Source: an archaeon
GTDB lineage: Archaea > Nanobdellota > Nanobdellia > Pacearchaeales > GW2011-AR1
Direction: 5' to 3'
Length of the DNA: 64,000 nt
Assembly (NCBI GenBank): GCA_027343665.1
Contig: DAHWKL010000002.1
Coordinates: 109,386 to 173,385, forward strand
Shown: positions 20,075 through 64,000 of the stretch, in pieces
Layout: every line of letters begins with the position of its first letter
How positions within the stretch are numbered: the stretch's first letter is position 1
Position numbers and translations under genes: made by a program
Notes under the pieces: model-generated
The model's database searches: none
Told to the model about the DNA's origin: nothing
Seen by the model: only the letters and a program-made list of their open reading frames with translations

Positions 20075-22063
20075 TCATTTAACGAGAACCATCTTGCCAA
20101 GTTCAGATTCAACCTTTGAATCCTTTTCTTTCTCTTCGAGTCTGTAAAGATAAACTCCTGAAGGGAATCCTGTCATGTCGACTTCGAATCTGTATTCGCC
20201 CGGAACCTTATATCCGCCTTCAATTGCTTTTACTTTTTGTCCAAGGATATTGTAAATATCAATCCCTACTTCTCCTGGCTTTGCCAAATCATACATTATC
20301 GTCGTTGTAGGATTGAAAGGGTTTGGATAATTCTGATATATCTGAAATTTCTTTGGAAGAAGAGGGTCTCTCTCATTCACAGCAGTCACATTTTCCACTT
20401 CTATAAGCTCGTCAGCTGAAGCCTTCAGCGTATCGCCATATGTGGTCACGAAATCCGTGAAAGTCCTTGTGAATGCGTAAGCTGTGGTTTTGTGAGTCTT
20501 ATCGGGGGATAATGTTGTATCTGCCCACACAGTATCATGATCGGTGTAATAAAGCCCCAAAGGAGCGGTTGTGTTCACTTTTGAAGTGTCAGGGAAAGCG
20601 TCAGGATATCCGTTTTGGAAAAGATATTGCGGAGTGAGAGCCTGACCTGAAGGGACTCTTCCTGCATCAACTACGAGAGTGTCAAGACTAGAACCATTTT
20701 TGTTTTTTATATCAACTTTCACAGCTGAACTTAAAATATTCCCATATTTCACATTTGTAGAAGCTGATGAATCCACTTTTGTGACTCCACCTGAAGTTAT
20801 CCATGTGTAAAATCTGTATGGAACAATCATGCTTGTGCTGTCAGCTGACCAGGTTGTGTCTCCCGTCACATAGGAAAGATTAGGAGGAAGTTTTGTGCTG
20901 TCAGCAGATATTGAAGGCACGACATTGAACCCAAGATTCTCAAGGCCCGAAAGGCTCATATCTGCTTTTGACGGAACTTTTGATCCGTCAACATCAACAC
21001 TGTCAGGCAATCCGCTTTCATGAACCCGAATGATATTTGGATTGTCCATAACAAAAGAATTTTCGGGATGATTTCGAGCATTATAATAACTAACCATTGT
21101 TCCTTCTCCATTCTTTAATTTAAATACAACGATTCCTGGCATATAACCAAAATACTTATTATGATTCTCTGCATCTTGAAGATAGGTATATTTCCCAATA
21201 AATACAGCCGAATCTGGATTCATATCATTACTACCTGGAGTAACATGATAAAGATAATAATTTCCGACAGTTCCCCCAATATAAAATGCATATATATTAG
21301 AAAAAGTCGTATCGGGTTTATCCACAAAAACTCCCGCAACAGCATGAGGACTTCCCCCAACATCATAATCATTCACTGTAAAAACGGGAATATTAAATCT
21401 TGCAGGAGTAACTTCACCACTTAAATCAATGCCTGTATTTTCTTTATACCAAGTTAGAAATGCACTTTGATTCGAGACACCATAAAAATCATCTTCATAT
21501 CTGGCTACAAAATTCTGGCAAAGCCAATCTTTAGTATCCCCTGCAGTAGGATAACCTGGGGGCATTGCAGATTCAATTTTCATCATTTTCTCAAGCCAAG
21601 AAACTCTCTCAGCCCTTGTGGTCAAAGAGTCCCAATATCCTGGAAGATAAGGTATTGTGTGATTTAGGTACTCTTGAATCAAATCTGCATCAGATTGGTT
21701 GACAACGCCATCGCCGTTTACATCTGCTCTGTCAAGATCCTGTGGGGGGACATTTCCGGATTCAATAATCTTGACATCTGTTGAATCAACTTTCCCGTCA
21801 TCATTTACATCTCCTGAGCCATACCAATCAAGAGGCCCTCTTCCAAGTTGTACTTGTATATTTGGCTGTGAATAAGGATTCATGAGTACTGGCCATGGCG
21901 TAGGACCATTGACAGTCATCTGAGGAATTGCAGTTGAGGGAGCAGGCCCGATTATCGGATTGCTGTCAAGAAACTGCTGCGCTTTTGCTTTTATAGGCAT
22001 AAGCGTTGCTAACGCGATAGCGCCGACCCCGAGATATTTAGCTAAACCTCTTAACTTTTTCAT
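20075..22063 (-). CDS. secreted dockerin-repeat protein with T9SS/FlgD-Ig-type C-terminal domain
   Basis: 662 aa with a signal peptide (..PIKAKAQQ). Two Ca-binding dockerin loops, DVNDDGKVDSTD and DVNGDGVVNQSD (nt 21668-21814). The last 95 aa (nt 20075-20362), QNYPNPFNPTTTIMYDL..IDIYNILGQKV..SGVYLYRLE, match the Por/T9SS C-terminal sorting-domain pattern. Confidence 0.8.
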   Translation of the reverse strand: MKKLRGLAKYLGVGAIALATLMPIKAKAQQFLDSNPIIGPAPSTAIPQMTVNGPTPWPVLMNPYSQPNIQVQLGRGPLDWYGSGDVNDDGKVDSTDVKIIESGNVPPQDLDRADVNGDGVVNQSDADLIQEYLNHTIPYLPGYWDSLTTRAERVSWLEKMMKIESAMPPGYPTAGDTKDWLCQNFVARYEDDFYGVSNQSAFLTWYKENTGIDLSGEVTPARFNIPVFTVNDYDVGGSPHAVAGVFVDKPDTTFSNIYAFYIGGTVGNYYLYHVTPGSNDMNPDSAVFIGKYTYLQDAENHNKYFGYMPGIVVFKLKNGEGTMVSYYNARNHPENSFVMDNPNIIRVHESGLPDSVDVDGSKVPSKADMSLSGLENLGFNVVPSISADSTKLPPNLSYVTGDTTWSADSTSMIVPYRFYTWITSGGVTKVDSSASTNVKYGNILSSAVKVDIKNKNGSSLDTLVVDAGRVPSGQALTPQYLFQNGYPDAFPDTSKVNTTAPLGLYYTDHDTVWADTTLSPDKTHKTTAYAFTRTFTDFVTTYGDTLKASADELIEVENVTAVNERDPLLPKKFQIYQNYPNPFNPTTTIMYDLAKPGEVGIDIYNILGQKVKAIEGGYKVPGEYRFEVDMTGFPSGVYLYRLEEKEKDSKVESELGKMVLVK

Positions 22064-22203: not shown

Positions 22204-25098
22204 TTACCTTCTCTTCGTAGTTTTTCTTCTAATGGCAAAAGTCTTCTTTCTTTTGGCTTTTACCTCAAACAAAATATAAAGAACAAAGATTATCAAAACA
22301 GCGACGATTGCATTCTGCCAATCAAAGAAACTCAGCTGAACCTGAGCGGGGCAAGGTATAACCGCGCTTCCGCTTTCACATGAGAATCCATTTGGAAGAC
22401 AGTGATAAGAGGTTGTACCATATAATCCGCAGATTCCATTGCTACAAACTCCGTTGCAATTAGCATTTGTGTAAGTATTATTATCCCAGACAATCTGAGC
22501 AGTCCATGAGGAATTTATCAGCTGACTGTTAGAGCAATCTTCACTCACAGGATTTTGAGTTATCTGGCATGAGACTCCTGTTCCTTGTGCAGCACTTCCG
22601 CCTGAAGTTCCAAGACCGCAAGCGCCAGCAGCACTATTCCACGAGCAAAAAGCATTCACTCCTGCAGGAGGATTTGAACCATAATCAACAAGATATGTGG
22701 CAAGTGAAACATTGCATCCGCCTACTCCATTCACATCTGCATTGCACCAGCTTTGCGCATTTGATAGTCCTACATTTGTTGAGGTATAATCAGTGCAGAA
22801 GCTTACAGAAGCACATTGCGACTTATTGACGGGTGCTGGAGAGCATTGCCCTCCACAACTGGAATCAGCATAGCAGCCATTTCCGACAGAATTACATGAA
22901 GGATCAACTTCACACAATCCGCCACCGCTTCCACTACAAGAATAATATGTTTGTGCTGAGCTTGTCACACTCAGCGTCGGGCTCGTATAACTTCCCAGTA
23001 CAAAAAAGAAATTGTATGTCCCGCTGTTTGAGGTTACCGCAGGATTATTCAAAACATTGCTGTTAAGAGTCCATGTATTGCTGCTCACAGTGTCAGAACC
23101 GCTCACTCCGCCTGAGAATGTTCCTAAGTTAACATTGTTATAAAAAGAGCAGGCAAGGAATCCACAGGAATAATTCTTTTCATAAAGGGTGAAAGTTCCG
23201 CCAGAAGCATAATTCTGAGCATAAAGGTATAAGGGTATTCCACTTGAAACAGAAGAGCTTGAATAAGAAGATTGTGATGGAGTTCCTGAACCATCAATTG
23301 CAAAATACAAACTTGGCGGAACGCAGGCAGAGCCGTCCCAGGTATATCCAGAGTTACACAGATAACATTGCTGTCCTACAGTTGAGCAATAATAGGATGC
23401 ATTATTATAAGCATTTGTAGGATTTGAGGGATTTCCGACATAACCACAAAAACCCGTATAAACTGTACCTTTTTGGGCGAGAGGACACTCAGGGAGGCAC
23501 ACTGTTCCGTTGTAAGTAAATCCAGGGTTACAGAAATAACAACTTTGGCTTGAGGGGCATAAATAGGAAGAATTGAGTTGCGCATTTTGAATAGGTGAAG
23601 AAGAACATCCCGCATTTCCTGTTCCGATAGTAGCAGAAGGACATGAAGTTCCGCAAGAAGTTGTAGAAGCTACTGCTGTAGCACTTAACGGACCACATGC
23701 ATTATTTGATCCCCCACATGCCTGAGCTTGATAACTATAAGTTGTCCCGCAATTCAACCCAGTATTATAATAAGATGCACCAGAAGGAACCGTTTTTATT
23801 AATGTGCCATTCCTGAAAACATTATAACTAGTAGCCCCCGAAACTTGTTGCACTGAGACATATATTGATGTTTGATAGGGAGTTAAACTCGGAGCGAGAA
23901 GACTGCATGCTCCAAGACCCCCTGCAACTGAAGAGCATCCATTACTACAGATATAACCCGAATTAGTGCCCAAAGTGCCTCCCCCGAATGTACCACTACT
24001 GCAATAATATTCCGTTAATTCAATCCTTGTAGAACATTGATCCGGATAGGGTGAATTTGTAGAAACCCCAGTCATATAACCTTGAGGACTTACCTGGTAA
24101 GTTGTCAGCGTTGCAGTTCCTGGGATATATGGATAATTCCCGTCCGTATCAGAGCACAAAGAAGTTGGAAGGCATTGATAATTGTAAGTCTGATTCACAT
24201 CATAACACCCTTGACTTGAATAAGCGGAACATTGACTTTGGGTAAATCCATAGCAACTCGTATTATATGAATATGTAGATTGAGGGTTCCATGTGCAACC
24301 TGCCGTATTCATACATGTAGTCTTGTCAAGACCCCCGCAGGTATTAGTAGCTAAAGGAGTATAACTGTTGGGAACATTTGGATTACTAGATAATGTACCT
24401 GTAGGTGTTCCCGTACAGTAAGCAGGGACGATTGAAGTCGTGACATACTGACCTCCGCAATAAGAGAACGTTGGGCTTGTTTGATTTAAAGCTGTTCCCG
24501 AAGGACATAAACAGGAATATTGAGGAGTACACCCAGAAGTGGATCTGCACGAAGTTTCATCCGGTATGCTACTGCATGAAGAAGATGAACTAGGTAACCA
24601 TGTACAATATGGCTGGTTTGACAAACATTGTGAAGAATCATAGGAATAACAATAAATACCATTAGCTATTGCAGCGGATTTGCAAGTCACATTGCCGCAC
24701 ATCGCATTTGCAAAATCACAACTACCGCTGTATGAAGTCCATGAACAAGGATTTGTAGTTCTCGAAGTGCAACCGATAGGGCAATTTGGACTCATGAAAG
24801 ATGAGCAAGGTTCATTGCCTGTTGTTGTCGTGGTTCCACCACAAGTGTCATAATAAGAAGCAGTACATTGAGATTGACTCAAGCCACTGCAAAAATTGGA
24901 ATCATAAGTGCTACCAGTATAACTTGAGCTTAGTGTACAAGAGGAACCTGTATAATATCCGCTACAACCAAGATAACTGACAGTCTGACCTTGGGTACAC
25001 GTCGTCGCGGAGACATTTTTCGCCATTGAAACGACTGATAAAAATAGGAAGAATGCTAATAACAGAAATAAACTAAACAATTTCACACTCTTTTTCAT
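22204..25098 (-). CDS. giant Cys/Ser/Thr/Gly/Tyr-rich surface protein with C-terminal TM anchor
   Basis: 964 aa. Signal peptide, about 74 Cys by hand count, and almost no Lys/Arg/Glu outside the termini. One FN3-like module (SGATSYNVFRNG..GTTYSYQAQA). Tandem EGF/furin-like repeats of the form Y(L/Y)C..Q(S/Q)CY(F/L)CN(P/S)G(F/Y)T(Y/W)(N/D)G..C(L/V)P. C-terminal TM helix plus a KAKRKK..RRKTTKRR tail. Confidence 0.8.
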   Translation of the reverse strand: MKKSVKLFSLFLLLAFFLFLSVVSMAKNVSATTCTQGQTVSYLGCSGYYTGSSCTLSSSYTGSTYDSNFCSGLSQSQCTASYYDTCGGTTTTTGNEPCSSFMSPNCPIGCTSRTTNPCSWTSYSGSCDFANAMCGNVTCKSAAIANGIYCYSYDSSQCLSNQPYCTWLPSSSSSCSSIPDETSCRSTSGCTPQYSCLCPSGTALNQTSPTFSYCGGQYVTTSIVPAYCTGTPTGTLSSNPNVPNSYTPLATNTCGGLDKTTCMNTAGCTWNPQSTYSYNTSCYGFTQSQCSAYSSQGCYDVNQTYNYQCLPTSLCSDTDGNYPYIPGTATLTTYQVSPQGYMTGVSTNSPYPDQCSTRIELTEYYCSSGTFGGGTLGTNSGYICSNGCSSVAGGLGACSLLAPSLTPYQTSIYVSVQQVSGATSYNVFRNGTLIKTVPSGASYYNTGLNCGTTYSYQAQACGGSNNACGPLSATAVASTTSCGTSCPSATIGTGNAGCSSSPIQNAQLNSSYLCPSSQSCYFCNPGFTYNGTVCLPECPLAQKGTVYTGFCGYVGNPSNPTNAYNNASYYCSTVGQQCYLCNSGYTWDGSACVPPSLYFAIDGSGTPSQSSYSSSSVSSGIPLYLYAQNYASGGTFTLYEKNYSCGFLACSFYNNVNLGTFSGGVSGSDTVSSNTWTLNSNVLNNPAVTSNSGTYNFFFVLGSYTSPTLSVTSSAQTYYSCSGSGGGLCEVDPSCNSVGNGCYADSSCGGQCSPAPVNKSQCASVSFCTDYTSTNVGLSNAQSWCNADVNGVGGCNVSLATYLVDYGSNPPAGVNAFCSWNSAAGACGLGTSGGSAAQGTGVSCQITQNPVSEDCSNSQLINSSWTAQIVWDNNTYTNANCNGVCSNGICGLYGTTSYHCLPNGFSCESGSAVIPCPAQVQLSFFDWQNAIVAVLIIFVLYILFEVKAKRKKTFAIRRKTTKRR

Positions 25099-57655: not shown

Positions 57656-58171
57656 ATGAGAGAATCTTTGACAGAAAAATTTGAAAACGCAAAACCCGGA
57701 GATATTTTCCTATTGGACTTGTATGACCCTGAATCTAGTCCTCCCCCAGTAATCGGAATTTACGAATCATTCCGCTACGCCGGAGAATCAAAGTATTCTA
57801 ATTTGAAATTAAAGGATCAAGATAGCAAAAAAGATTATCTCTTAGTTCCAAGAGGTAATTCACTAGAACTCCGATTGCCTATAGAAAAAAACGGGAAAAT
57901 CTTTGCAGATTACAGGATCATAAGTTTGCATCAGTTTATGGATGAAGTTTTCTCACCTCAGGGGGTATATATTGGAAAGGACGAGATAATAAAAATCCTT
58001 AAGGAGCATTCATTCAGAAACATGAGACATTATGCAGATATGCTTGAGAAAGATATTCTCACAGAGTCACCAACAATGTTTGAAAGATTCCTCACCAATT
58101 TCGCTTTTCCTGAGCGTATGAATTCGAATGGGCTCAGGTTTCGGAACAGACCTTTGAAATTAATGCCTTAA
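57656..58171 (+). CDS. hypothetical protein
   Basis: 171 aa with no motif. Confidence 0.45.
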   Translation: MRESLTEKFENAKPGDIFLLDLYDPESSPPPVIGIYESFRYAGESKYSNLKLKDQDSKKDYLLVPRGNSLELRLPIEKNGKIFADYRIISLHQFMDEVFSPQGVYIGKDEIIKILKEHSFRNMRHYADMLEKDILTESPTMFERFLTNFAFPERMNSNGLRFRNRPLKLMP

Positions 58172-58177
58172 AATTTA

Positions 58178-58828
58178 TTAATTCTTAGCTAAGAAAGGCA
58201 ATAATTTATTTTCTGCCCTGCGCAGGCTTTCCTGGAAACTCTGTTTTGAGATTCCGGCTGCTTTCGAAAGCTTATTCAAATCGGTCCTGCGGGGAAAAGA
58301 ATAATAACCGTTTTTTATCGCGAGGTTCATTGCTTTTCTCTGTTTATCAGATATCCCGGGCTGGACCTGAGGCAAAAACAGGTCCGACTTCTTTAGTTTC
58401 CCGACAGAAACAATCTTCATGTCAAAATGCGAGTTGTCCATCACTTTCATGAGGGCATCCTTGTCCCATGAAGCGAGTTCCCAGTCTTCGTAACCATCCA
58501 CCCTCTGGACTACCGGCTTCACATAGATTATCCTTCTGTCGAATATCGCCCAGTATTCGGAGGATTCCTTCTTGCTCAATTTGTTCAGTGTGAATATCCA
58601 ATTGTCCTCTGTCTCGAACTTGGAGAGAGTTTTCTCTTTCTTGAAATCACGGATGAACTTTTTTACATTAGATTCATCCCCCTCGAGAATATGCAGCTCA
58701 GTGTAACAAAATTTCCCTTTCTCTTCCCAGGAGTTCAGGAGATAGACATAATCATCCACTTTGAACTTGACACATCTCGGGCGTATCACGCAGTCCTTGT
58801 GCCAATTTTTGAATTTCGCTACCCACAT
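58178..58828 (-). CDS. HTH_10 (bacterio-opsin activator-type) DNA-binding protein
   Basis: 216 aa. The C-terminal SDKQRKAMNLAIKNGYYSFPRRTDLNKLSKAAGISKQSFQESLRRAENKL is the HTH_10 signature. Confidence 0.75.
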   Translation of the reverse strand: MWVAKFKNWHKDCVIRPRCVKFKVDDYVYLLNSWEEKGKFCYTELHILEGDESNVKKFIRDFKKEKTLSKFETEDNWIFTLNKLSKKESSEYWAIFDRRIIYVKPVVQRVDGYEDWELASWDKDALMKVMDNSHFDMKIVSVGKLKKSDLFLPQVQPGISDKQRKAMNLAIKNGYYSFPRRTDLNKLSKAAGISKQSFQESLRRAENKLLPFLAKN

Positions 58829-58849
58829 GAAAAAGCTAAGGAAAACAAC

Positions 58850-58857
58850 TTTTTAAT
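58850..58857 (-). promoter_or_regulatory. TATA box for the HTH_10 gene (leaderless)
   Basis: Minus-strand ATTAAAAA centred 25.5 nt upstream of the ATG at 58828. Confidence 0.45.
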
Positions 58858-58949
58858 TCTTACGAATCAGCCCTGACATATCAGGTAAAAATTTGATATA
58901 ATGATTGTGCATGTAGTTATTATAAAGCGATTAAATTTGCAGGAGAAAA

Positions 58950-59051
58950 ATGAAAACAGAAGCACAAAAACAAATCATATTCAAAACAAGCTTCGCATTT
59001 AGTGCGAACGGGAAATGGAGTGGAATAAGGGAAGAAATAAAAAGAAAATGA
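58950..59051 (+). CDS. 33-aa ORF, truncated SGxW-family copy (absent from the ORF track)
   Basis: Hand translation gives MKTEAQKQIIFKTSFAFSANGKWSGIREEIKRK*. It is the first ATG after the TATA-like ATTATAAA (58919-58926). The stop overlaps the next ATG (ATGA). NGKWSG resembles the SGQWSG and SGSWGS of the two larger paralogues. Confidence 0.35.
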   Translation: MKTEAQKQIIFKTSFAFSANGKWSGIREEIKRK

Positions 59052-59401
59052 GAACTCTTGATGGACTTTTTATCGGGGAAGCACAAAAAATTGCCGAAGG
59101 AATTGAAAAATGGGAGGAAAATAACTTTGGGTTTAGGGGATTATCGGAGGAGGGACTGGAATTTTATATAAAAAATGTTGAATACCATAGTGGACAATGG
59201 AGCGGAGGAGGATTCAATATGTCTGTAAAGTATAAGGGAAAAACCCTGTCAACCTTTGAGTCGAGTATATTTAGAGATGACGAAGAATACGACCTCTTGA
59301 GTAGAATATTCTATTCAGCAAAAGATAAGTACGAAGCCTCTAAGAAGAGTAACATTGAGATCCAAGAGGCTATAAGGAAAGCCTTGGAGAGGACAAAATG
59401 A
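59048..59401 (+). CDS. orphan cassette protein A (SGxW family)
   Basis: 117 aa from the ATG at 59048 (the track ORF starts at 59015, inside the 33-aa ORF). Paralogous to protein C: IEKWEE/IKNWEK, Y(I/K)K(N/H)VE..SG.W, and a conserved C-terminal Y.A...(Y/F)E.SKK...IQ..I.K. Confidence 0.5.
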   Translation: MRTLDGLFIGEAQKIAEGIEKWEENNFGFRGLSEEGLEFYIKNVEYHSGQWSGGGFNMSVKYKGKTLSTFESSIFRDDEEYDLLSRIFYSAKDKYEASKKSNIEIQEAIRKALERTK

Positions 59402-59916
59402 AAACAATAGAATCAAGAATTGACGAAGTGAAATCAAGAGGGCAAATAGCAAAAGCTATAGCAAAAAGTGTAGGTTCGGATATTCATGGTCTTGCAAAAA
59501 ATGGCTTGAAGGCAACAGAATCTGCTGCAAAAAATATTAATGACAACGCCTATAAGGTTGCAAAGGCCAGTCTGAAAGCGGCAGGTTACATTGTTACTGC
59601 TCCAGTAATCGGAAACATGAGTGGCGCTGTTAGAGAAGAGTTTTACGGGGAAATTAAACACAACCTTTCAGGTGACGAGCACATGAGCCCAAACTCTTTA
59701 TCAAAATGGATTGGAACCTTATCCGAAATTGTTGGGGGATTATATCTTACTGCAATAAACGACAGAATCGATGTGGGGGGAATTGTCGGATTGGGTCTCG
59801 TCGTTGATGCACTCATCTCTAAGAATAGGGATAGTTCTCTCATTGGATATCTACCCTCTAAAGCATACGAATATTTGAAGAGCAAATACGAAGCTGCAAA
59901 AGGAGAAAGAAAATGA
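59398..59916 (+). CDS. orphan cassette protein B (amphipathic N-terminus and Gly-zipper hydrophobic C-half)
   Basis: 172 aa. An Ala/Lys-rich amphipathic region, then WIGTLSEIVGGLYLTAINDRIDVGGIVGLGLVVDALI. ATGA overlaps on both sides. Confidence 0.5.
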   Translation: MKTIESRIDEVKSRGQIAKAIAKSVGSDIHGLAKNGLKATESAAKNINDNAYKVAKASLKAAGYIVTAPVIGNMSGAVREEFYGEIKHNLSGDEHMSPNSLSKWIGTLSEIVGGLYLTAINDRIDVGGIVGLGLVVDALISKNRDSSLIGYLPSKAYEYLKSKYEAAKGERK

Positions 59917-60290
59917 AAACTTTAACAGAAAAACTAACGAAGGAAGATGTCGCGAACTTAGCAGAAAGGATAAAAAATTGGGAGAAAGACGGCAATTCTT
60001 ACACAGGAAAAACAAATGGCGTAACGGTGGAAATTTACAAACATGTGGAAACAATATCGGGGAGCTGGGGGTCTCAAGACAGATCTAGCTATAATCTTGA
60101 AATCATAAGCAGCGGTAGGGATATTCCTTATGAAGAAGGATATGCGATAGAGGGAGGAGGCATATCTGTTGAAGCTGACGTGTGGTATACAGCCGAAGAA
60201 GCTTTTGAAAAATCCAAAAAGCGCAAATACAACAAGTCAATACAAAAAGACATAGCAAAAATCAAAAAAATCGCGAGAGGCAAGGGTTAA
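59913..60290 (+). CDS. orphan cassette protein C (SGxW family)
   Basis: 125 aa. Paralogue of protein A. Confidence 0.5.
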   Translation: MKTLTEKLTKEDVANLAERIKNWEKDGNSYTGKTNGVTVEIYKHVETISGSWGSQDRSSYNLEIISSGRDIPYEEGYAIEGGGISVEADVWYTAEEAFEKSKKRKYNKSIQKDIAKIKKIARGKG

Positions 60291-60305: not shown

Positions 60306-60971
60306 TCATTCCTTCTTCAAAATTTCAACACTGATCCCTTCGTGCTCGCAGAGTTCCTTGAATTCTTCGGCATCTTTTTCAGTCCCGACAATTGTTCCCC
60401 AATGCATGGGAATCGCGATCCCTGGCTTGATTATCTTTGCGGCTTCAGCCGCTTCCTCAGCGCTCATCGTGAACCTGCCACCGACAGGAAGTAAAGCAAC
60501 AAATTTTTTATCCGGCTGATTGTACCCGGTTAGTTTCTGCATTTCAGGTATCACATCTGTGTCTCCTGCATGGTAGATTATCACATCGTTCGTCTTAACA
60601 ACATATCCGACAAGATCTTCCTCTTTTGTATGAAAAGTCTTATCGATGTTATAAGCCGGAACAGTTGATACCTTCACGGTTCCGAAATCAACTTCCTGAT
60701 TCGGCGAGACTACTTCCATCCTGATAGGAACCTGAAAACGCGCGATTTTGCTCTGCGAATCGGCAGTCATTATTATCTTTGTGCCTTCCTTGACAATTTT
60801 CCCAAGATCTTCATAGCTACAATGATCATAATGTCCGTGTGTAATAAGAATTAAATCCGCTTTTGGAAGCCCATCAGAAATCTTGAAAGGATCTATGTAG
60901 ATTATTTTTGAATTTTGTATCAAAAAACCTGCGTGGCCAAGCCAGCGCAAATCAATTTCCCCTATTTTCAT
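60306..60971 (-). CDS. metallo-beta-lactamase-fold hydrolase (UPF0173-like)
   Basis: WLGHAGFLI, ITHGHYDH and later H/D ligands. The ATG at 60971 (MKIGEIDL) is supported by a TATA-like box at 60994-61001, whereas the track ORF starts at a TTG (60986). Confidence 0.8.
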   Translation of the reverse strand: MKIGEIDLRWLGHAGFLIQNSKIIYIDPFKISDGLPKADLILITHGHYDHCSYEDLGKIVKEGTKIIMTADSQSKIARFQVPIRMEVVSPNQEVDFGTVKVSTVPAYNIDKTFHTKEEDLVGYVVKTNDVIIYHAGDTDVIPEMQKLTGYNQPDKKFVALLPVGGRFTMSAEEAAEAAKIIKPGIAIPMHWGTIVGTEKDAEEFKELCEHEGISVEILKKE

Positions 60972-61018
60972 AATTCTGTAAAACAAAAAACGGTTTTTAA
61001 GGTTTTATATCCATGAGG

Positions 61019-61107: not shown

Positions 61108-63282
61108 ATGGCAGATATTTTCAAGCCCGACAGTTTGTCCATAAAACAGGTATTTGATGCTGACAATTATTATCAAGTTCCTTCTTACCAAAGACCATAT
61201 AGTTGGGATAATGAACAAATTGATGAACTTTGGGATGACCTTTTTAGTGCTTTTGAAGAAGGAAAGGAGGAATACTTTTTAGGTTCAATTATTGTATCTA
61301 AGGGAGAAAAAGAAAAATATCTTGATGTTATTGATGGTCAACAGAGACTAACAACCCTAATGATTCTTTTTTGTGTCTTAAGAGACTTGTATTATAAAGA
61401 CCATAAAGAAAAAAATAGTATCCTTGGAAGAATAAGAAGCCTTGAGGATTCTGAGAATAGATTAAAATTAAGAACACAAATTCATAACCAGAATCATTTT
61501 GAACAAGATATTTTGAATGGAATAGATTTCACTAAGAAAAGAAAAATCTCCGAAATAAAAGCAGACAAATTCATAAATGCTGCACTTCGTTTTAAGGAAA
61601 AAGTAGATTCTATAACAGGAGATAAAGAAAAGATTGAAGGATTTAAGGAGTATATATTAGAAAAAGTTAAAGTAATTTTAGTAAAATGTTCAGACCCAAC
61701 TTTTGCTATGAAACTTTTTGAAGTCCTTAATACAAGAGGTCTTGATTTAACAGCTGCAGACATAATAAAAAGTAATTTAATGGGCAGACTTAAACAAGAA
61801 GATTGGGAGACTTTTGAACAAGAATGGATTTCAATGGAGGAGAAAGCCAAACAATCAGAGGAAAGCATCAGTAACTTGCTTACATATTATGAATATTACA
61901 TTCTTGCAAAAAATCCAAAAAAAACTCTACAAGAAGAATTAATAAAGGAATTTGGAAAAGGAAATTCATTAAAAATAATTAGTGAAATTAAGAAATTTTT
62001 TGATTTCTATCTTTCTATTTTTGACAAAAAGTCTAAGATTTTCTATTCTTTAAGATACTTAAAACATGATGTTTATTGGAAATCAATCGTTCTTTCAGCA
62101 AAGATGGAAGGGTGGGACGATGATGATGTAGAAGATTTGGGGGAAGCATTGAGAAAGTTTTATTATTTATATTGGATGGCAGATTACACAACATCCAAAA
62201 CCAAACAAACATCATTCAACATCATCTCTTGGATAAAGTCTGGAAAAGAATTGGACTTTATAGAAAAAGAAATTGAAAAGAAAATTTTGGAAGATAAAAT
62301 TGTAACAAGACTTTATGAAGGATTGAATGGAAATACATATGATTCTGCTTGGTGTAAACCACTACTTATTCTAATTGAATATGAACAAATTGACACTCCA
62401 AGACAAGATTTTATGGAGATTGACAGGAACATTCAAGTTGAGCATATTTTACCGAGAGAATACAAAAAAGACAAGTATTGGTTAGAAAATCAAAGATTTA
62501 CAGAGGAATCAGCGGACTTATTTGTTAATACTATTGGAAATCTGACACTTCTTTCGGGAAAAAAGAATATTGCTGCAAGTTGTCATTCATTTCCTTCCAA
62601 ATTGAAAAATAATTATAAAGGAAATGGTGAAGATGGCACTACTGGTTTTTTAGTTACTCAGAAAATTATTCATGACGCTGTAGAAGAAAAATCTTTAGAG
62701 TGGAATGAAGAAAAAATTAAGAAAAGGAAACAATGGATATTGGAACAGATTGAAGATATATTTGACATAGAGTTTGAAAATGCTGATGGTAACGAAAAAG
62801 AATTTTTAAAATATGGAAAAATCCTTGAAGGAAAATCAGAATGGAAAGATAAAGGAGTTCTTTTGTGGAGAAAAAATAAATTGGCTGCTTCTGATGTGGA
62901 AAGAAGCCCTGCAGGAAATGTCACGGGAAGATTAAAATTAGTTAAATCAAATTTCAAAGTTGGAGATAAACTCATTGACCAAACTTCTTATTTTAGGGAA
63001 AAAGTTTTTGGAAACCTTGAATGGGCTCCCAAAGAGCACACTGAAAAAGAAATCGCAGAAGCAATTTTTGTTATCAAGGTTATGGGAGAAGACTTAGGAG
63101 TCCATAGATTAACCATCGGTCACAATCCATACGGAGAAGCAGGTCAAAATAACTATACTACTCACATTTCATGGGGGGGTTTGTCTGATAAAATAAAAAA
63201 GTTGAACCTTGAAGGAAAAATGTTCTCAATTTATGCTCCTCCAGAAGGTCAAAGGGAACCCTTTTATATTGAAATTAAATAA
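61108..63282 (+). CDS. GmrSD-like (DUF262 and DUF1524) type IV restriction enzyme homologue with extra C-terminal domain
   Basis: 724 aa. DUF262/ParB-like N-terminus (YQVPSYQRPYSW, IDGQQRLTT) and a DUF1524 His-Me finger region (VEHILPRE..NTIGNLTLL..KN). About 200 additional C-terminal residues have a beta-rich, B3/EcoRII-N-like look. Confidence 0.8.
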   Translation: MADIFKPDSLSIKQVFDADNYYQVPSYQRPYSWDNEQIDELWDDLFSAFEEGKEEYFLGSIIVSKGEKEKYLDVIDGQQRLTTLMILFCVLRDLYYKDHKEKNSILGRIRSLEDSENRLKLRTQIHNQNHFEQDILNGIDFTKKRKISEIKADKFINAALRFKEKVDSITGDKEKIEGFKEYILEKVKVILVKCSDPTFAMKLFEVLNTRGLDLTAADIIKSNLMGRLKQEDWETFEQEWISMEEKAKQSEESISNLLTYYEYYILAKNPKKTLQEELIKEFGKGNSLKIISEIKKFFDFYLSIFDKKSKIFYSLRYLKHDVYWKSIVLSAKMEGWDDDDVEDLGEALRKFYYLYWMADYTTSKTKQTSFNIISWIKSGKELDFIEKEIEKKILEDKIVTRLYEGLNGNTYDSAWCKPLLILIEYEQIDTPRQDFMEIDRNIQVEHILPREYKKDKYWLENQRFTEESADLFVNTIGNLTLLSGKKNIAASCHSFPSKLKNNYKGNGEDGTTGFLVTQKIIHDAVEEKSLEWNEEKIKKRKQWILEQIEDIFDIEFENADGNEKEFLKYGKILEGKSEWKDKGVLLWRKNKLAASDVERSPAGNVTGRLKLVKSNFKVGDKLIDQTSYFREKVFGNLEWAPKEHTEKEIAEAIFVIKVMGEDLGVHRLTIGHNPYGEAGQNNYTTHISWGGLSDKIKKLNLEGKMFSIYAPPEGQREPFYIEIK

Positions 63283-64000
63283 CCCTATTTCTATTCAATC
63301 TTCTTCTCTGCAATTTTTTCCAGATTGAATTTGCCATCCGAATGTCTTCCTCAGAAAATCCATAATTCTTTTTTAAGATTATATTGTCTGTAAAATTTAG
63401 TATAGAGTCTATATCTTTATTATCTCTGAACATCTCATCAATTTTTTCTGAAAGCTCTTCGTTATTTTTATGATAGGGTATCAAAATATTTTCTGCCTCA
63501 CTTGGCATTAATTCCAAAACTCCCCCTCCATGACTCCTTCCGAAAAGTTCTGCCAATGCAAAAGAGAGGGAATTATAATAACTTCCGATTAATGCATCAA
63601 TTTTTATGGGCTCCTTATTTTTATTTAATGAAACTCTATGCATAGTGTCTGTGGTATAAACTTTGGCTTTATTATTAATTAATCTAGGGAACAAATTGTT
63701 TCTTCGTATAAATAATGCATCAGAAATCCAAGCAGAAGGAACTATTTGCCACTCATCTCTTATACGGCATTTATACCATTTATTTATTCCTTTTTCTTCT
63801 CCAATCTTTATATAATTCATCGCTTTCTTATTTGACTTCAATTTGTTAAGTGAAGGAAATTGAATGAAAAATGCTCTTGCACCTTCAATGGCATTTTTTT
63901 TCCAGTCGCTTTTTGTGAAAACATTACCTTGAGATTGTACGCTTCTTCCGACAAGAGGGAAAGCATACTCTGATAAATTATACTCCTCAACAATCTGTTT
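63275..64000 (-). CDS. DNA methyltransferase / type IIG R-M C-terminal target-recognition region (5' end beyond window)
   Basis: By hand translation the frame of the track ORF 63275..63841 (TTG start) stays open to nt 64000 (..KQIVEEYNLSEYAFPLVGRS..). ..YKCRIRDEWQIVP.. and ..GRSHGGGVLELMPSEAENILIP.. resemble TaqI-like C-terminal specificity domains of gamma-class N6-adenine methyltransferases. Confidence 0.45.
   Translation of the reverse strand, partial: KQIVEEYNLSEYAFPLVGRSVQSQGNVFTKSDWKKNAIEGARAFFIQFPSLNKLKSNKKAMNYIKIGEEKGINKWYKCRIRDEWQIVPSAWISDALFIRRNNLFPRLINNKAKVYTTDTMHRVSLNKNKEPIKIDALIGSYYNSLSFALAELFGRSHGGGVLELMPSEAENILIPYHKNNEELSEKIDEMFRDNKDIDSILNFTDNIILKKNYGFSEEDIRMANSIWKKLQRRRLNRNRVI

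What the first reader, a model, noticed from the sequence alone, without database searches (positions are those of the whole stretch)
58829..60290. Four translationally coupled orphan genes (SGxW paralogue family around a Gly-zipper membrane protein) next to an HTH_10 regulator: candidate novel toxin/immunity or defence-type cassette
After a divergent spacer shared with an HTH_10 regulator, four ORFs are chained by ATGA overlaps. Each junction has the same AAAATGA(A/G)AAC sequence, at 58946, 59044, 59394 and 59909. ORF1 (33 aa, not in the track), ORF2 (117 aa) and ORF4 (125 aa) share a motif set. The set comprises an MxTL start, I(E/K)xWE(E/K), hydrophobic-K-x-VE-x2-SGxW(S/G), and in ORF2 and ORF4 a conserved C-terminal helix Y-A-x3-(Y/F)E-SKK..IQ..I-K. 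They are therefore paralogues, with ORF1 a truncated copy. They bracket ORF3 (172 aa). ORF3 has an Ala/Lys amphipathic N-half and a glycine-zipper hydrophobic C-half (IVGGLYL..VGGIVGLGLVV), as seen in small pore-forming or membrane-disrupting proteins. I recognise no known domain in any of them. The spacer holds a CCTGA-N4-TCAGG inverted repeat (58872-58885) between the two TATA boxes, which is a possible operator. The cassette lies 0.8 kb from a GmrSD-like enzyme and a methyltransferase gene, in the most AT-rich and accessory-looking part of the window. A membrane effector flanked by duplicated soluble partners suggests an immunity, chaperone or sensor arrangement.
Basis: partly seen in the sequence, partly recalled or inferred. 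Interest (0 to 1): 0.7.

Follow-up and report, generated by a model that had tools for sequence, protein, structure and literature searches.

The report
Regulator-linked operon of archaeal orphan genes
Four overlapping small genes next to a DNA-binding regulator are real, but the only part found in other archaea is the regulator plus the third gene, a rare helical protein of unknown function, and nothing links the cluster to toxins or anti-virus defence.

Summary
The four + strand ORFs (58950-60290) exist and are chained by ATGA stop/start overlaps. ORF2 and ORF4 are true paralogues (27% identity, z=10). ORF1's paralogy is not established. The junction motif is this genome's usual operon junction, not a cassette signature. 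The cassette is not AT-rich (GC 0.39-0.41; the GmrSD gene is 0.30).

No curated library (Pfam, PADLOC, PHROGs, NCBIfam, PDB sequences) matches any of the four products. An exhaustive HMMER search gave ORF3 a very small family: seven other members, in DPANN-type archaea where a source is named. All eight loci carry a transcription-factor gene immediately upstream. It is an orthologous HTH_10 protein in two loci, a tandem Lrp/AsnC protein in five and a TrmB protein in one. The co-transcribed partners differ in every lineage. ORF2 and ORF4 occur nowhere else.

ORF3's hydrophobic half is only marginally membrane-like and has no canonical glycine zipper. Neighbours in most related loci are housekeeping genes.

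Best reading: an operon controlled by its adjacent regulator. It encodes a conserved, probably membrane-peripheral helical protein plus lineage-specific partners. The toxin/immunity or defence reading is unsupported but not excluded. Interest is modest.

The parts
58178..58828 (-). HTH_10-family transcription regulator (216 aa). The N-terminal ~155 aa have no known domain. It is the proposed local regulator of the operon.
   Evidence: Pfam PF04967 at residues 160-210, E=4.3e-18, 65 bits against a cut-off of 23. It is 34% identical over its full length (E=3e-35) to the HTH_10 protein encoded next to ORF3's closest relative in L001.
58829..58949 (.). Divergent promoter spacer (121 nt). It holds A/T-rich TATA-like boxes at about 58850-58858 (for the - strand gene) and about 58896-58903 (for the + strand operon), with the palindrome between them.
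   Evidence: Read directly from the sequence. The TATA assignments are inferred from position and were not tested.
58872..58885 (.). Palindrome CCTGACATATCAGG (6 of 7 positions self-complementary). It is a candidate operator for the HTH_10 protein.
   Evidence: Present and unique in the window. Its role is argued by analogy with L001. There the exact 17-nt box ATATATCGGAATATTCC, which contains the palindrome GGAATATTCC, precedes both the orthologous regulator gene and its target operon. It is not significant on its own.
58950..59051 (+). ORF1 (33 aa). It is a possible leader or upstream small ORF, and its coding status is uncertain.
   Evidence: AGGAGA lies 3 nt upstream of the ATG, and its stop overlaps the ORF2 start as ATGA. 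It has no homologues and no significant similarity to ORF2 or ORF4. Weak hints link it to the ORF2 5' end: an in-frame shared 12-mer GAAGCACAAAAA and a gapped alignment with p about 0.005-0.03. The database gene call instead extends ORF2 to 59015 (P0003, 128 aa).
59048..59401 (+). ORF2 (117 aa). It is a soluble orphan with predicted alpha/beta secondary structure (low-confidence model) and a paralogue of ORF4.
   Evidence: BLASTP against ORF4 gives E=4e-6, and z=10 against shuffles. The start at 59048 is supported by alignment with the ORF4 N-terminus. AF2 gives pLDDT 54 with order helix, four strands, two helices. No hydrophobic segment was found. No relatives were found in 5.8 billion proteins by word-indexed search.
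59398..59916 (+). ORF3 (172 aa). It is the conserved core protein and is predicted all-helical by a low-confidence model. It has an N-terminal amphipathic Ala/Lys region with 11-residue periodicity, the motifs Y-x2-(T/S)AP-x-IG and RE-x-FYG, two moderately hydrophobic small-residue-rich helices, and the C-terminal motif G-Y-(I/L)-P-S-K-x3-Y-x3-K-Y-x2-A-K.
   Evidence: Exhaustive HMMER found relatives P0004-P0007 (E=5e-9 to 4e-4). P0008, P0009 and L011 were added later. Alignment A3 shows the motifs. AF2 gives pLDDT 52, all helices. Hydropathy is marginal. Lag-11 identity is the maximum of all lags tested.
59913..60290 (+). ORF4 (125 aa). It is a soluble orphan, a paralogue of ORF2 and the last gene of the operon.
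   Evidence: AGGAGA lies 6 nt upstream of its ATG. The convergent MBL-fold gene ends 15 nt downstream, at 60306.

Best explanation
This is a single operon (ORF1-ORF4) under the control of its adjacent regulator, in the chromosome of an archaeon that is probably DPANN-type.

The conserved unit is the pair 'transcription factor + ORF3-family protein'. The divergently encoded HTH_10 protein most likely binds the palindrome in the 121-nt spacer. From there it would control both its own leaderless gene and the operon.

ORF3 is a helical protein with an amphipathic N-terminal region built on an 11-residue period and two weakly hydrophobic helices. I infer that it sits at the membrane surface or dips into it, rather than spanning it as a pore.

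ORF2 and ORF4 arose by a tandem duplication specific to this lineage. I infer that they are soluble accessory subunits of ORF3. They occupy the position that unrelated small proteins, mostly anchored by an N-terminal TM helix, hold in other lineages.

The stop/start overlaps, with Shine-Dalgarno-like GGAG embedded in the preceding gene's last codons, would keep the products at coupled ratios.

Shown: the gene structure, the paralogy, the family, the conserved adjacency to a regulator, and the absence of defence signatures. Inferred: the operator function, the membrane-peripheral location, complex formation, and the physiological role (a condition-dependent envelope or membrane function).
For: - Gene chain and overlaps.
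- SD-like GGAG before ORF1, ORF3 and ORF4. In this window SD-like motifs precede only 13 of 71 gene starts.
- ORF2/ORF4 paralogy.
- ORF3 family of 8 members.
- All eight loci have a transcription-factor gene directly upstream, either adjacent or separated by co-directional operon genes (one in L001 and L013; ORF1-ORF2 in the window). The window and L001/L002 have HTH_10. L003/4, L005-8, L009, L010 and L013 have tandem Lrp/AsnC proteins that are 54-64% identical among the four compared. L011 has TrmB. That makes three unrelated DNA-binding families.
- The window and L001 regulators are orthologous (E=3e-35).
- L001 has an exact 17-nt palindrome-bearing box before both the regulator gene and the target operon.
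- Accessory genes differ in every lineage.
- Most accessory proteins elsewhere have clear N-terminal TM helices, whereas ORF3-family hydrophobic segments score 4-7.7 kcal/mol on a simple Hessa sum. The TM helices of co-operonic and neighbouring proteins score -4 to 2.6, with one at 4.5.
- 11-residue periodicity in the ORF3 N-terminal region.
- The chromosomal context is housekeeping: FtsZ, TYW3, MCM, PolB.
Against: - No experiment or transcript data exist.
- Both structure models are of low confidence (pLDDT 52 and 54), so fold, location and interactions are guesses.
- The window palindrome differs in sequence from the L001 box and is not significant alone.
- The family is tiny, and five of its eight loci share orthologous regulators, so the regulator association rests on about three independent events.
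- ORF3's best 19-residue window reaches Kyte-Doolittle 1.59, at the conventional TM threshold, so an integral hairpin cannot be ruled out.
- A GmrSD gene lies 0.8 kb away.
- TA-type genes lie within 1-5 kb in two related loci: RHH/PIN in L001 and NTase/HEPN in L009.
Confidence: 0.5

Rival explanations
1. Toxin/immunity or defence cassette. ORF3 would be a membrane-disrupting effector. ORF2 and ORF4 would be duplicated immunity, chaperone or sensor proteins. The HTH_10 protein would keep the cassette repressed until it is triggered.
For: - ORF3 has hydrophobic, Gly-rich helices, and its best window is at the Kyte-Doolittle TM threshold.
- Duplicated, fast-evolving partner genes, and a similar 'paralogues bracket another gene' layout with unrelated sequences in L010.
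- GmrSD and a methyltransferase lie 0.8-3 kb downstream.
- RHH/PIN and NTase/HEPN pairs lie within a few kb in L001 and L009.
- The partners are rare and lineage-specific, as expected for arms-race genes.
Against: - No PADLOC, Pfam or PHROGs match for any product.
- ORF2 and ORF4 are absent from every other ORF3-family locus, so there is no conserved effector-immunity pair.
- One family member (L003/L004) stands alone with its regulator and has no partner gene.
- The neighbourhoods are mainly housekeeping.
- No hits in viral contigs.
- The cassette's GC (0.39-0.41) matches the chromosome, while the GmrSD gene (0.30) does not, and a convergent MBL-fold gene separates them.
- No canonical glycine zipper.
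- Hydrophobic segments are too short and too polar for standard TM helices.
Confidence: 0.12
2. Signal-transduction pair. The ORF3-family protein would be a membrane-associated co-regulator, an anti-activator or sensor, that binds or sequesters the adjacent transcription factor in response to membrane state. This would resemble PspA/PspF or anti-sigma arrangements. ORF2 and ORF4 would act as modulators.
For: - Invariable adjacency of the family to a transcription-factor gene in 8 of 8 loci.
- An amphipathic helical N-terminal region that could switch between the membrane and a protein partner.
- In L003/L004 the pair stands alone with no other operon genes.
Against: The partner regulator belongs to three unrelated families (HTH_10, tandem Lrp/AsnC, TrmB). 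This is easier to explain by replacement of a local regulator at a promoter than by a conserved protein-protein interface. No interaction data exist.
Confidence: 0.15
3. Partly non-functional sequence. ORF1 would be a chance ORF or a decayed remnant. ORF2's true start would be the upstream ATG at 59015, as in the database gene call. The cassette would then be three genes.
For: - ORF1 has no homologues and no significant similarity to anything.
- The gene caller behind the protein database chose 59015 for ORF2 (P0003, 128 aa).
- ORF1 is only 33 codons long, so no statistical test has power.
Against: - ORF1 has the same AGGAGA-spacer-ATG context as ORF3 and ORF4, and an exact ATGA overlap with the ORF2 start.
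- That ORF2 start aligns with the ORF4 N-terminus: MRTL against MKTL.
- The 59015 ATG has no spaced SD.
- An in-frame shared 12-mer with ORF2 suggests that ORF1 derives from the ORF2 5' end.
Confidence: 0.2

Closest known systems
Divergently transcribed local regulator plus target operon, as in Lrp/AsnC-, TrmB- and HTH_10 (Bat-type)-controlled operons of archaea
   Same: A transcription-factor gene lies back-to-back with a small operon, with a palindrome in the shared spacer. In the orthologous locus L001 the same box is repeated before the regulator gene and before the target. That layout is the classic signature of autoregulation combined with target control (my own knowledge of these families).
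   Different: The target genes belong to no described family. The regulator's N-terminal ~155 residues match no domain. Its ligand or signal is unknown, and no binding has been shown.
Glycine-zipper and small pore-forming membrane proteins (GxxxGxxxG helices; Pfam Gly-zipper families; small membrane toxins)
   Same: ORF3 has a Gly/Val/Leu-rich stretch (VGGIVGLGLVV) containing one GxxxG, and it is a small protein.
   Different: There is no GxxxGxxxG in the hydrophobic half, and no Pfam Gly-zipper hit even at E<=1. The stretch is not conserved in relatives. The hydrophobic segments are about 15 residues long and interrupted by Asp, Glu or Arg. Their insertion-energy sums are well above those of most TM helices in proteins of the same loci.
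Toxin-immunity and polymorphic-toxin cassettes with duplicated immunity genes; type II TA modules
   Same: Small, tightly coupled genes, duplicated partner genes, an adjacent HTH regulator, and rapid turnover of partners between lineages.
   Different: There is no recognisable toxin or immunity domain. The partner genes are not conserved together with the putative effector. One family member has no partner at all. The context is a core chromosome rather than an island.
Exchangeable lipid-binding proteins with 11-residue-repeat amphipathic helices (apolipoproteins, alpha-synuclein, perilipins, group 3 LEA proteins)
   Same: The ORF3 N-terminal region shows four successive 11-mers with Ala-Lys at the same position, and identity peaks at lag 11. 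Relatives have two such units.
   Different: This is a resemblance of periodicity only. There is no sequence homology, lipid binding is untested, and the comparison rests on my own knowledge of those families.

Membership tests
HTH_10 transcription regulators (Pfam PF04967) - applies to the neighbouring gene 58178-58828 | C-terminal HTH_10 domain scoring above the Pfam gathering threshold | tested here: met
   65.3 bits against a cut-off of 23.1, E=4.3e-18, residues 160-210 covering profile positions 2-52 of 53.
Glycine-zipper membrane proteins | GxxxGxxxG (or (G/A/S)xxxGxxxG) motif within a transmembrane helix | tested here: not met
   A regular-expression scan finds only GxxxG at 127-131 in the hydrophobic half. 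The sole zipper-pattern hit (68-76, APVIGNMSG) lies in the conserved TAPxIG motif. The pattern is absent from P0004, P0009 and L011.
Glycine-zipper membrane proteins | Match to a Pfam Gly-zipper family | tested here: not met
   No such family appears for ORF3 at E<=1, nor for the other six members of alignment A3.
Integral membrane protein (ORF3) | At least one hydrophobic segment of about 19-21 residues compatible with membrane insertion | tested here: inconclusive
   The maximum Kyte-Doolittle 19-residue window is 1.59 for ORF3 and 1.18-1.66 across the family, against the conventional threshold of 1.6. Simple Hessa sums are 4.0-7.7 kcal/mol, compared with -4.1 to 2.6 (one at 4.5) for TM helices of proteins encoded in the related loci. 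No dedicated TM predictor was available.
Known anti-phage defence systems (PADLOC-DB v2) | Any component matching a defence-system model | tested here: not met
   There are 0 families for ORF1-ORF4 and for the regulator at E<=1. Only the separate GmrSD and methyltransferase genes match.
Defence-island gene (guilt by association) | Recurrent co-localisation of family members with defence genes across genomes | tested here: not met
   Of 8 loci, only the window has a restriction-type gene within 1 kb. L001 has RHH/PIN at about 1 kb and L009 has NTase/HEPN at about 4 kb. The others are flanked by ribosomal proteins, SRP54, RIO1, DHH, RNase P p30, helicase, PCNA and GatB. The sample is small.
Toxin-antitoxin / toxin-immunity module | Effector and cognate immunity gene conserved as a pair across genomes | tested here: not met
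   ORF2 and ORF4 have no relatives anywhere, and none among the neighbours of the seven other ORF3-family genes.
Toxin-antitoxin / toxin-immunity module | Growth inhibition by the effector, relieved by the partner | not testable with these tools
   This requires expression experiments.
Translationally coupled operon | Same-strand genes whose stop and start codons overlap, with a ribosome-binding motif inside the upstream gene | tested here: met
   ATGA overlaps lie at 59048-59051, 59398-59401 and 59913-59916. GGAG-type motifs lie 3-6 nt upstream of the ORF1, ORF3 and ORF4 starts, and the one before ORF2 is weaker. Actual coupling was not measured.
ORF2/ORF4 'SGxW' paralogue family | Significant full-length similarity between members | tested here: met
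   For ORF2 against ORF4: BLASTP E=4e-6, phmmer E=1.4e-7, and SW z=10.
ORF2/ORF4 'SGxW' paralogue family | ORF1 is a (truncated) member | tested here: inconclusive
   Standard tests are negative. Permissive gapped alignment to ORF2 gives p about 0.005-0.03, and a shared in-frame 12-mer gives p about 0.01. An unrelated control protein reached a similar p.

The most novel reading that the evidence does not exclude
The ORF3 family together with its dedicated transcription factor is a previously undescribed envelope module, apparently restricted to DPANN-type archaea. A conserved, membrane-surface-binding helical protein would recruit fast-evolving, lineage-specific partners: soluble ORF2/ORF4 here, and N-terminally anchored extracytoplasmic proteins elsewhere. 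The module could serve the symbiont-host interface or a membrane-stress response. Alternatively, it could be a new regulator-gated membrane toxin with private immunity proteins.
Probability: 0.15. Interest if true: 0.6.

Novelty: new variant of a known kind. Interest (0 to 1): 0.3.

Why it matters
If the pairing holds up, it defines a very small protein family: eight members recovered from searches of billions of predicted proteins. The family has a clear genomic rule (always beside a transcription factor) and a testable operator. That gives a handle on one piece of the large 'hypothetical' fraction of DPANN-type archaeal genomes. It could point to a regulated membrane or cell-surface function in organisms that live attached to hosts. 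The practical result for the scan is negative: the cassette should not be counted as a candidate defence or toxin system on present evidence. Its striking junction motif is simply the way this genome joins operon genes.

Tried and rejected
- Curated libraries for ORF1-ORF4: Pfam, PADLOC, PHROGs and NCBIfam gave nothing below E about 0.05.
- PDB sequence searches. ORF3 alone and the 7-member profile gave nothing meaningful. The ORF2/ORF4 profile gave weak nanobody hits (best E=0.004) centred on an SGGG-type stretch. I treat these as compositional chance.
- Word-indexed searches of 5.8 billion proteins returned only the window's own proteins for ORF3 and for the ORF2/ORF4 profile.
- AlphaFold2 on ORF3 (7-sequence alignment) and ORF2 (2-sequence alignment) gave pLDDT 52 and 54. 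Foldseek against the PDB gave no match at E<=0.001 and TM-scores below 0.4. I rejected both as evidence.
- Profile-profile comparison of ORF2/ORF4 with the L010 paralogue pair and with the L010 227-aa protein gave probability 0.2%. All-against-all BLASTP and phmmer of the accessory proteins found no cross-locus homology.
- Genome-collection scan with the regulator found no relative. The metagenome scan with ORF3+P0004 found nothing. Viral-contig scans with the ORF3 subfamily and with ORF2/ORF4 found nothing.
- Exact look-up of ORF3 in the assembly index: not on record.
- No second copy of any cassette gene exists elsewhere in the window (tblastn).
- Rfam and tRNA scans found nothing in or near the cassette.
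- The sigma-70 and terminator consensus scan is not applicable to an archaeon and gave nothing above the shuffle expectation.
- One literature search found nothing relevant.
Full report
**What is there**

The + strand between 58950 and 60290 carries four ORFs:
- ORF1, 58950-59051, 33 aa
- ORF2, 59048-59401, 117 aa
- ORF3, 59398-59916, 172 aa
- ORF4, 59913-60290, 125 aa

Each junction is a 4-nt ATGA stop/start overlap. A 121-nt spacer separates ORF1 from a divergent 216-aa gene (58178-58828, - strand). The C-terminus of that gene's product is a clear HTH_10 domain (E=4e-18). Downstream, a convergent MBL-fold hydrolase gene (60306-60986) ends 15 nt after ORF4. It is followed by a GmrSD-type gene (61108-63282) and the C-terminal part of a type II methyltransferase.

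The rest of the window is ordinary archaeal chromosome. It encodes CDC48, PolB, MCM, DNA ligase, ArgRS, FtsZ and TYW3.

*Junction motif.* The word AAAATGA(A/G)AAC does occur at all four starts, at 58947, 59045, 59395 and 59910. That is one base to the right of the reported positions. The window holds 7 copies against 0.6 expected. One of the three copies outside the cassette lies in a gene start (49598). The other two lie at 4-nt operon overlaps (29893 and 51661). My crude gene set finds nine ATG-bearing stop/start overlaps of 1-8 nt elsewhere in the window, six of them 4-nt. The word is therefore this A-rich genome's usual operon junction: a Lys-rich C-terminus, a stop overlapping ATG, then Lys-Thr.

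GGAG-type motifs lie 3-6 nt before the ORF1, ORF3 and ORF4 starts. Only 13 of 71 starts in the window have such a motif. This fits internal operon genes that use Shine-Dalgarno pairing. It also explains why unrelated proteins in this and related loci end in G-E-(T/R)-K.

*Paralogy.* ORF2 and ORF4 are real paralogues. BLASTP gives 27% identity over the full length, E=4e-6. The Smith-Waterman score is 90 against a shuffle mean of 32 (z=10, 0 of 1000 shuffles).

ORF1 is not demonstrably a member. There is no BLASTP alignment. The z scores are 1.2 and 0.5, and 103 of 500 shuffles reach its score against the ORF2/ORF4 profile. Two weak hints remain:
- The 12-mer GAAGCACAAAAA occurs only twice in the window. 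Both copies are in frame as E-A-Q-K, at ORF1 codons 4-7 and ORF2 codons 11-14.
- A gap-tolerant alignment of ORF1 to ORF2 gives p about 0.005-0.03. An unrelated control protein reached a similar p.

I call this inconclusive.

*Base composition.* The cassette is not in the AT-rich part of the window. Its GC is 0.39-0.41, while the GmrSD gene is 0.30.

*Palindrome.* CCTGACATATCAGG is present at 58872-58885 and is unique in the window. A 5+5 palindrome in a spacer is not significant by itself.

**Are the products orphans?**

Pfam, PADLOC, PHROGs, NCBIfam and PDB sequence searches give nothing credible for any of the four. Word-indexed searches of 5.8 billion proteins return only the window's own products.

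The exhaustive HMMER search of 1.84 billion cluster representatives found four distant relatives of ORF3: P0004-P0007, E=5e-9 to 4e-4, 144-171 aa. A profile search added P0008 and P0009. A genome scan added L011. That makes eight members in all.

One member is annotated as coming from a 'Nanoarchaeota archaeon' and one from an uncultured archaeon bin. The sources of the others are unnamed.

The alignment shows these conserved motifs:
- Y-x2-(T/S)-A-P-x-I-G
- R-E-x-(F/I)-Y
- C-terminal G-Y-(I/L)-P-S-K-x3-Y-x3-K-Y-(D/E)-x-A-K

ORF2 and ORF4 have no relatives anywhere.

**Context of the family**

| Locus | Regulator | Operon genes |
|---|---|---|
| Window | HTH_10, divergent | ORF1, ORF2, ORF3, ORF4 |
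| L001/L002 | HTH_10, same strand | 360-aa orphan, then P0004 (ATGA overlap) |
| L003/L004 | Tandem Lrp/AsnC (323 aa), divergent | P0005 alone |
| L005-L008 | Tandem Lrp/AsnC, divergent | P0006, then 161-aa and 76-aa TM proteins |
| L009 | Tandem Lrp/AsnC, divergent | P0007, then a 71-aa TM protein and a HEAT-repeat protein |
| L010 | Tandem Lrp/AsnC, divergent | P0009, then four coupled orphans |
| L011 | TrmB-type, divergent | Family member, then a 138-aa N-terminally anchored protein |
| L013 | Tandem Lrp/AsnC, divergent | 199-aa orphan, then P0008 |

In L010, two of the four coupled orphans (112 and 118 aa, each with an N-terminal TM helix) are paralogues of each other and flank a 227-aa protein.

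Three conclusions follow:
- All eight loci have a transcription-factor gene directly upstream. The factors come from three unrelated DNA-binding families.
- The window's regulator is orthologous to L001's (34% identity over the full length, E=3e-35).
- The accessory genes share no detectable similarity between loci.

Flanking genes are mostly housekeeping: ribosomal proteins, SRP54, RIO1, DHH, RNase P p30, PCNA and GatB. TA-type pairs lie nearby in two loci, RHH/PIN in L001 and NTase/HEPN in L009. No relatives were found in viral contigs.

**The operator idea**

In L001 an exact 17-nt box, ATATATCGGAATATTCC, contains the palindrome GGAATATTCC. It occurs twice in 1 kb. One copy lies just upstream of the HTH_10 gene and one lies just upstream of the 360-aa/P0004 operon. 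This is what one expects for a regulator that controls both itself and its neighbour.

In the window the two promoters are back to back, and a single palindrome sits between the two A/T boxes. The half-sites differ (CCTGA(C/T)A against TCGGAAT), as could be expected for regulators that are 34% identical.

**What kind of protein is ORF3?**

AlphaFold2 with the 7-sequence alignment gives an all-helical model of low confidence (pLDDT 52). Foldseek finds nothing.

The N-terminal region shows four successive 11-mers with Ala-Lys in the same position, and identity peaks at lag 11. Relatives have two such units, so ORF3 carries a roughly 23-residue expansion.

The hydrophobic half does not look like standard transmembrane helices:
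- The best Kyte-Doolittle 19-residue window is 1.59 for ORF3 and 1.18-1.66 across the family.
- Simple Hessa sums are 4-7.7 kcal/mol. TM helices of proteins encoded in the related loci score -4.1 to 2.6, with one at 4.5.
- There is no GxxxGxxxG, only a single GxxxG at 127-131. The stretch is not conserved in the family.

I infer a membrane-peripheral or shallowly inserted helical protein. An integral hairpin cannot be excluded.

The ORF2 model (pLDDT 54) has the order helix, four strands, two helices, with no hydrophobic segment. It has no significant fold match.

**Interpretation**

The conserved unit is a transcription factor plus an ORF3-family protein. ORF2 and ORF4 are a lineage-specific tandem duplication around ORF3. 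They fill the slot that unrelated small proteins, mostly membrane-anchored, fill in other lineages.

The most economical reading is an operon controlled by its adjacent regulator and encoding a membrane-associated complex of unknown physiological role (confidence about 0.5). Rival readings and my confidence in each:
- ORF3 as a co-regulator of the adjacent factor, about 0.15. This is disfavoured because the factor family changes between loci.
- Toxin/immunity or defence cassette, about 0.12. It lacks every positive signature that could be tested here. Toxicity was not testable.
- ORF1 as a non-coding or decayed ORF, about 0.2. This affects only the first 100 nt of the cassette.

**Novelty and interest**

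The proteins belong to no described family, and the ORF3 family's strict pairing with a regulator is a clean new observation. However, a locally regulated operon of lineage-specific hypothetical proteins is a common kind of locus in DPANN-type genomes, and no new mechanism is demonstrated. I rate it a new variant of a known kind, with interest 0.3.

Noticed in passing
window 61108-63841: The GmrSD-type gene (724 aa) has GC 0.30, against 0.39-0.41 for its neighbours. It also carries about 175 residues beyond the GmrSD_C domain. The adjacent - strand ORF 63275-63841 matches only the C-terminal third of type II methyltransferase models, so the methyltransferase may be split, frameshifted or truncated. 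Together they look like a separately acquired restriction islet.
   Followed up: partly
L001 4175-4191 and 4865-4881: The exact 17-nt repeat ATATATCGGAATATTCC, containing the palindrome GGAATATTCC, lies upstream of the HTH_10 gene and again upstream of the 360-aa/P0004 operon. It is a strong candidate operator for the orthologue of the window's regulator.
   Followed up: partly
L010 2903-4274: Downstream of the ORF3-family gene, two paralogous proteins (112 and 118 aa, E about 1e-6, z=11), each with an N-terminal TM helix, flank a 227-aa orphan. This is the same 'paralogues bracket another gene' layout as ORF2/ORF3/ORF4 in the window, but with unrelated sequences.
   Followed up: partly
L001 4922-6004: The 360-aa protein co-transcribed upstream of P0004 gives a weak match to polyprenyl synthetase (Pfam E=0.023, residues 114-291). 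It appears to lack the canonical Asp-rich motifs. It may be a degenerate isoprenoid-synthase fold.
   Followed up: no
window 20075-22063 (- strand): A 661-aa protein combines a Dockerin_1 domain with a Por_Secre_tail (type IX secretion C-terminal sorting) domain. This is an unusual pairing for an archaeal chromosome.
   Followed up: no
window 22204-25098 (- strand): A 963-aa ORF has no Pfam match at E<=1e-5. It is another large orphan.
   Followed up: no
window 59443-59607 (ORF3 residues 16-70): This region is built on an 11-residue period, with Ala-Lys at the same position in four successive units. Relatives have two units, so ORF3 carries a roughly 23-residue internal expansion.
   Followed up: partly
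window 58959-58970 and 59078-59089: The 12-mer GAAGCACAAAAA occurs only at these two places in 64 kb. Both copies are in frame as E-A-Q-K near the starts of ORF1 and ORF2. This hints that ORF1 derives from a partial duplication of the ORF2 5' end.
   Followed up: partly
window 57656-58171 (+ strand): A 171-aa ORF convergent with the regulator gene has no match in Pfam, PADLOC, PHROGs or NCBIfam. It is another orphan next to the cassette, and whether it belongs with the cassette is unknown.
   Followed up: partly
L002 and L010 (both from run SRR32414324): The same metagenome holds both the HTH_10-linked and the Lrp-linked subfamilies of the ORF3 family, on different contigs. The two subfamilies therefore coexist in one community.
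   Followed up: no
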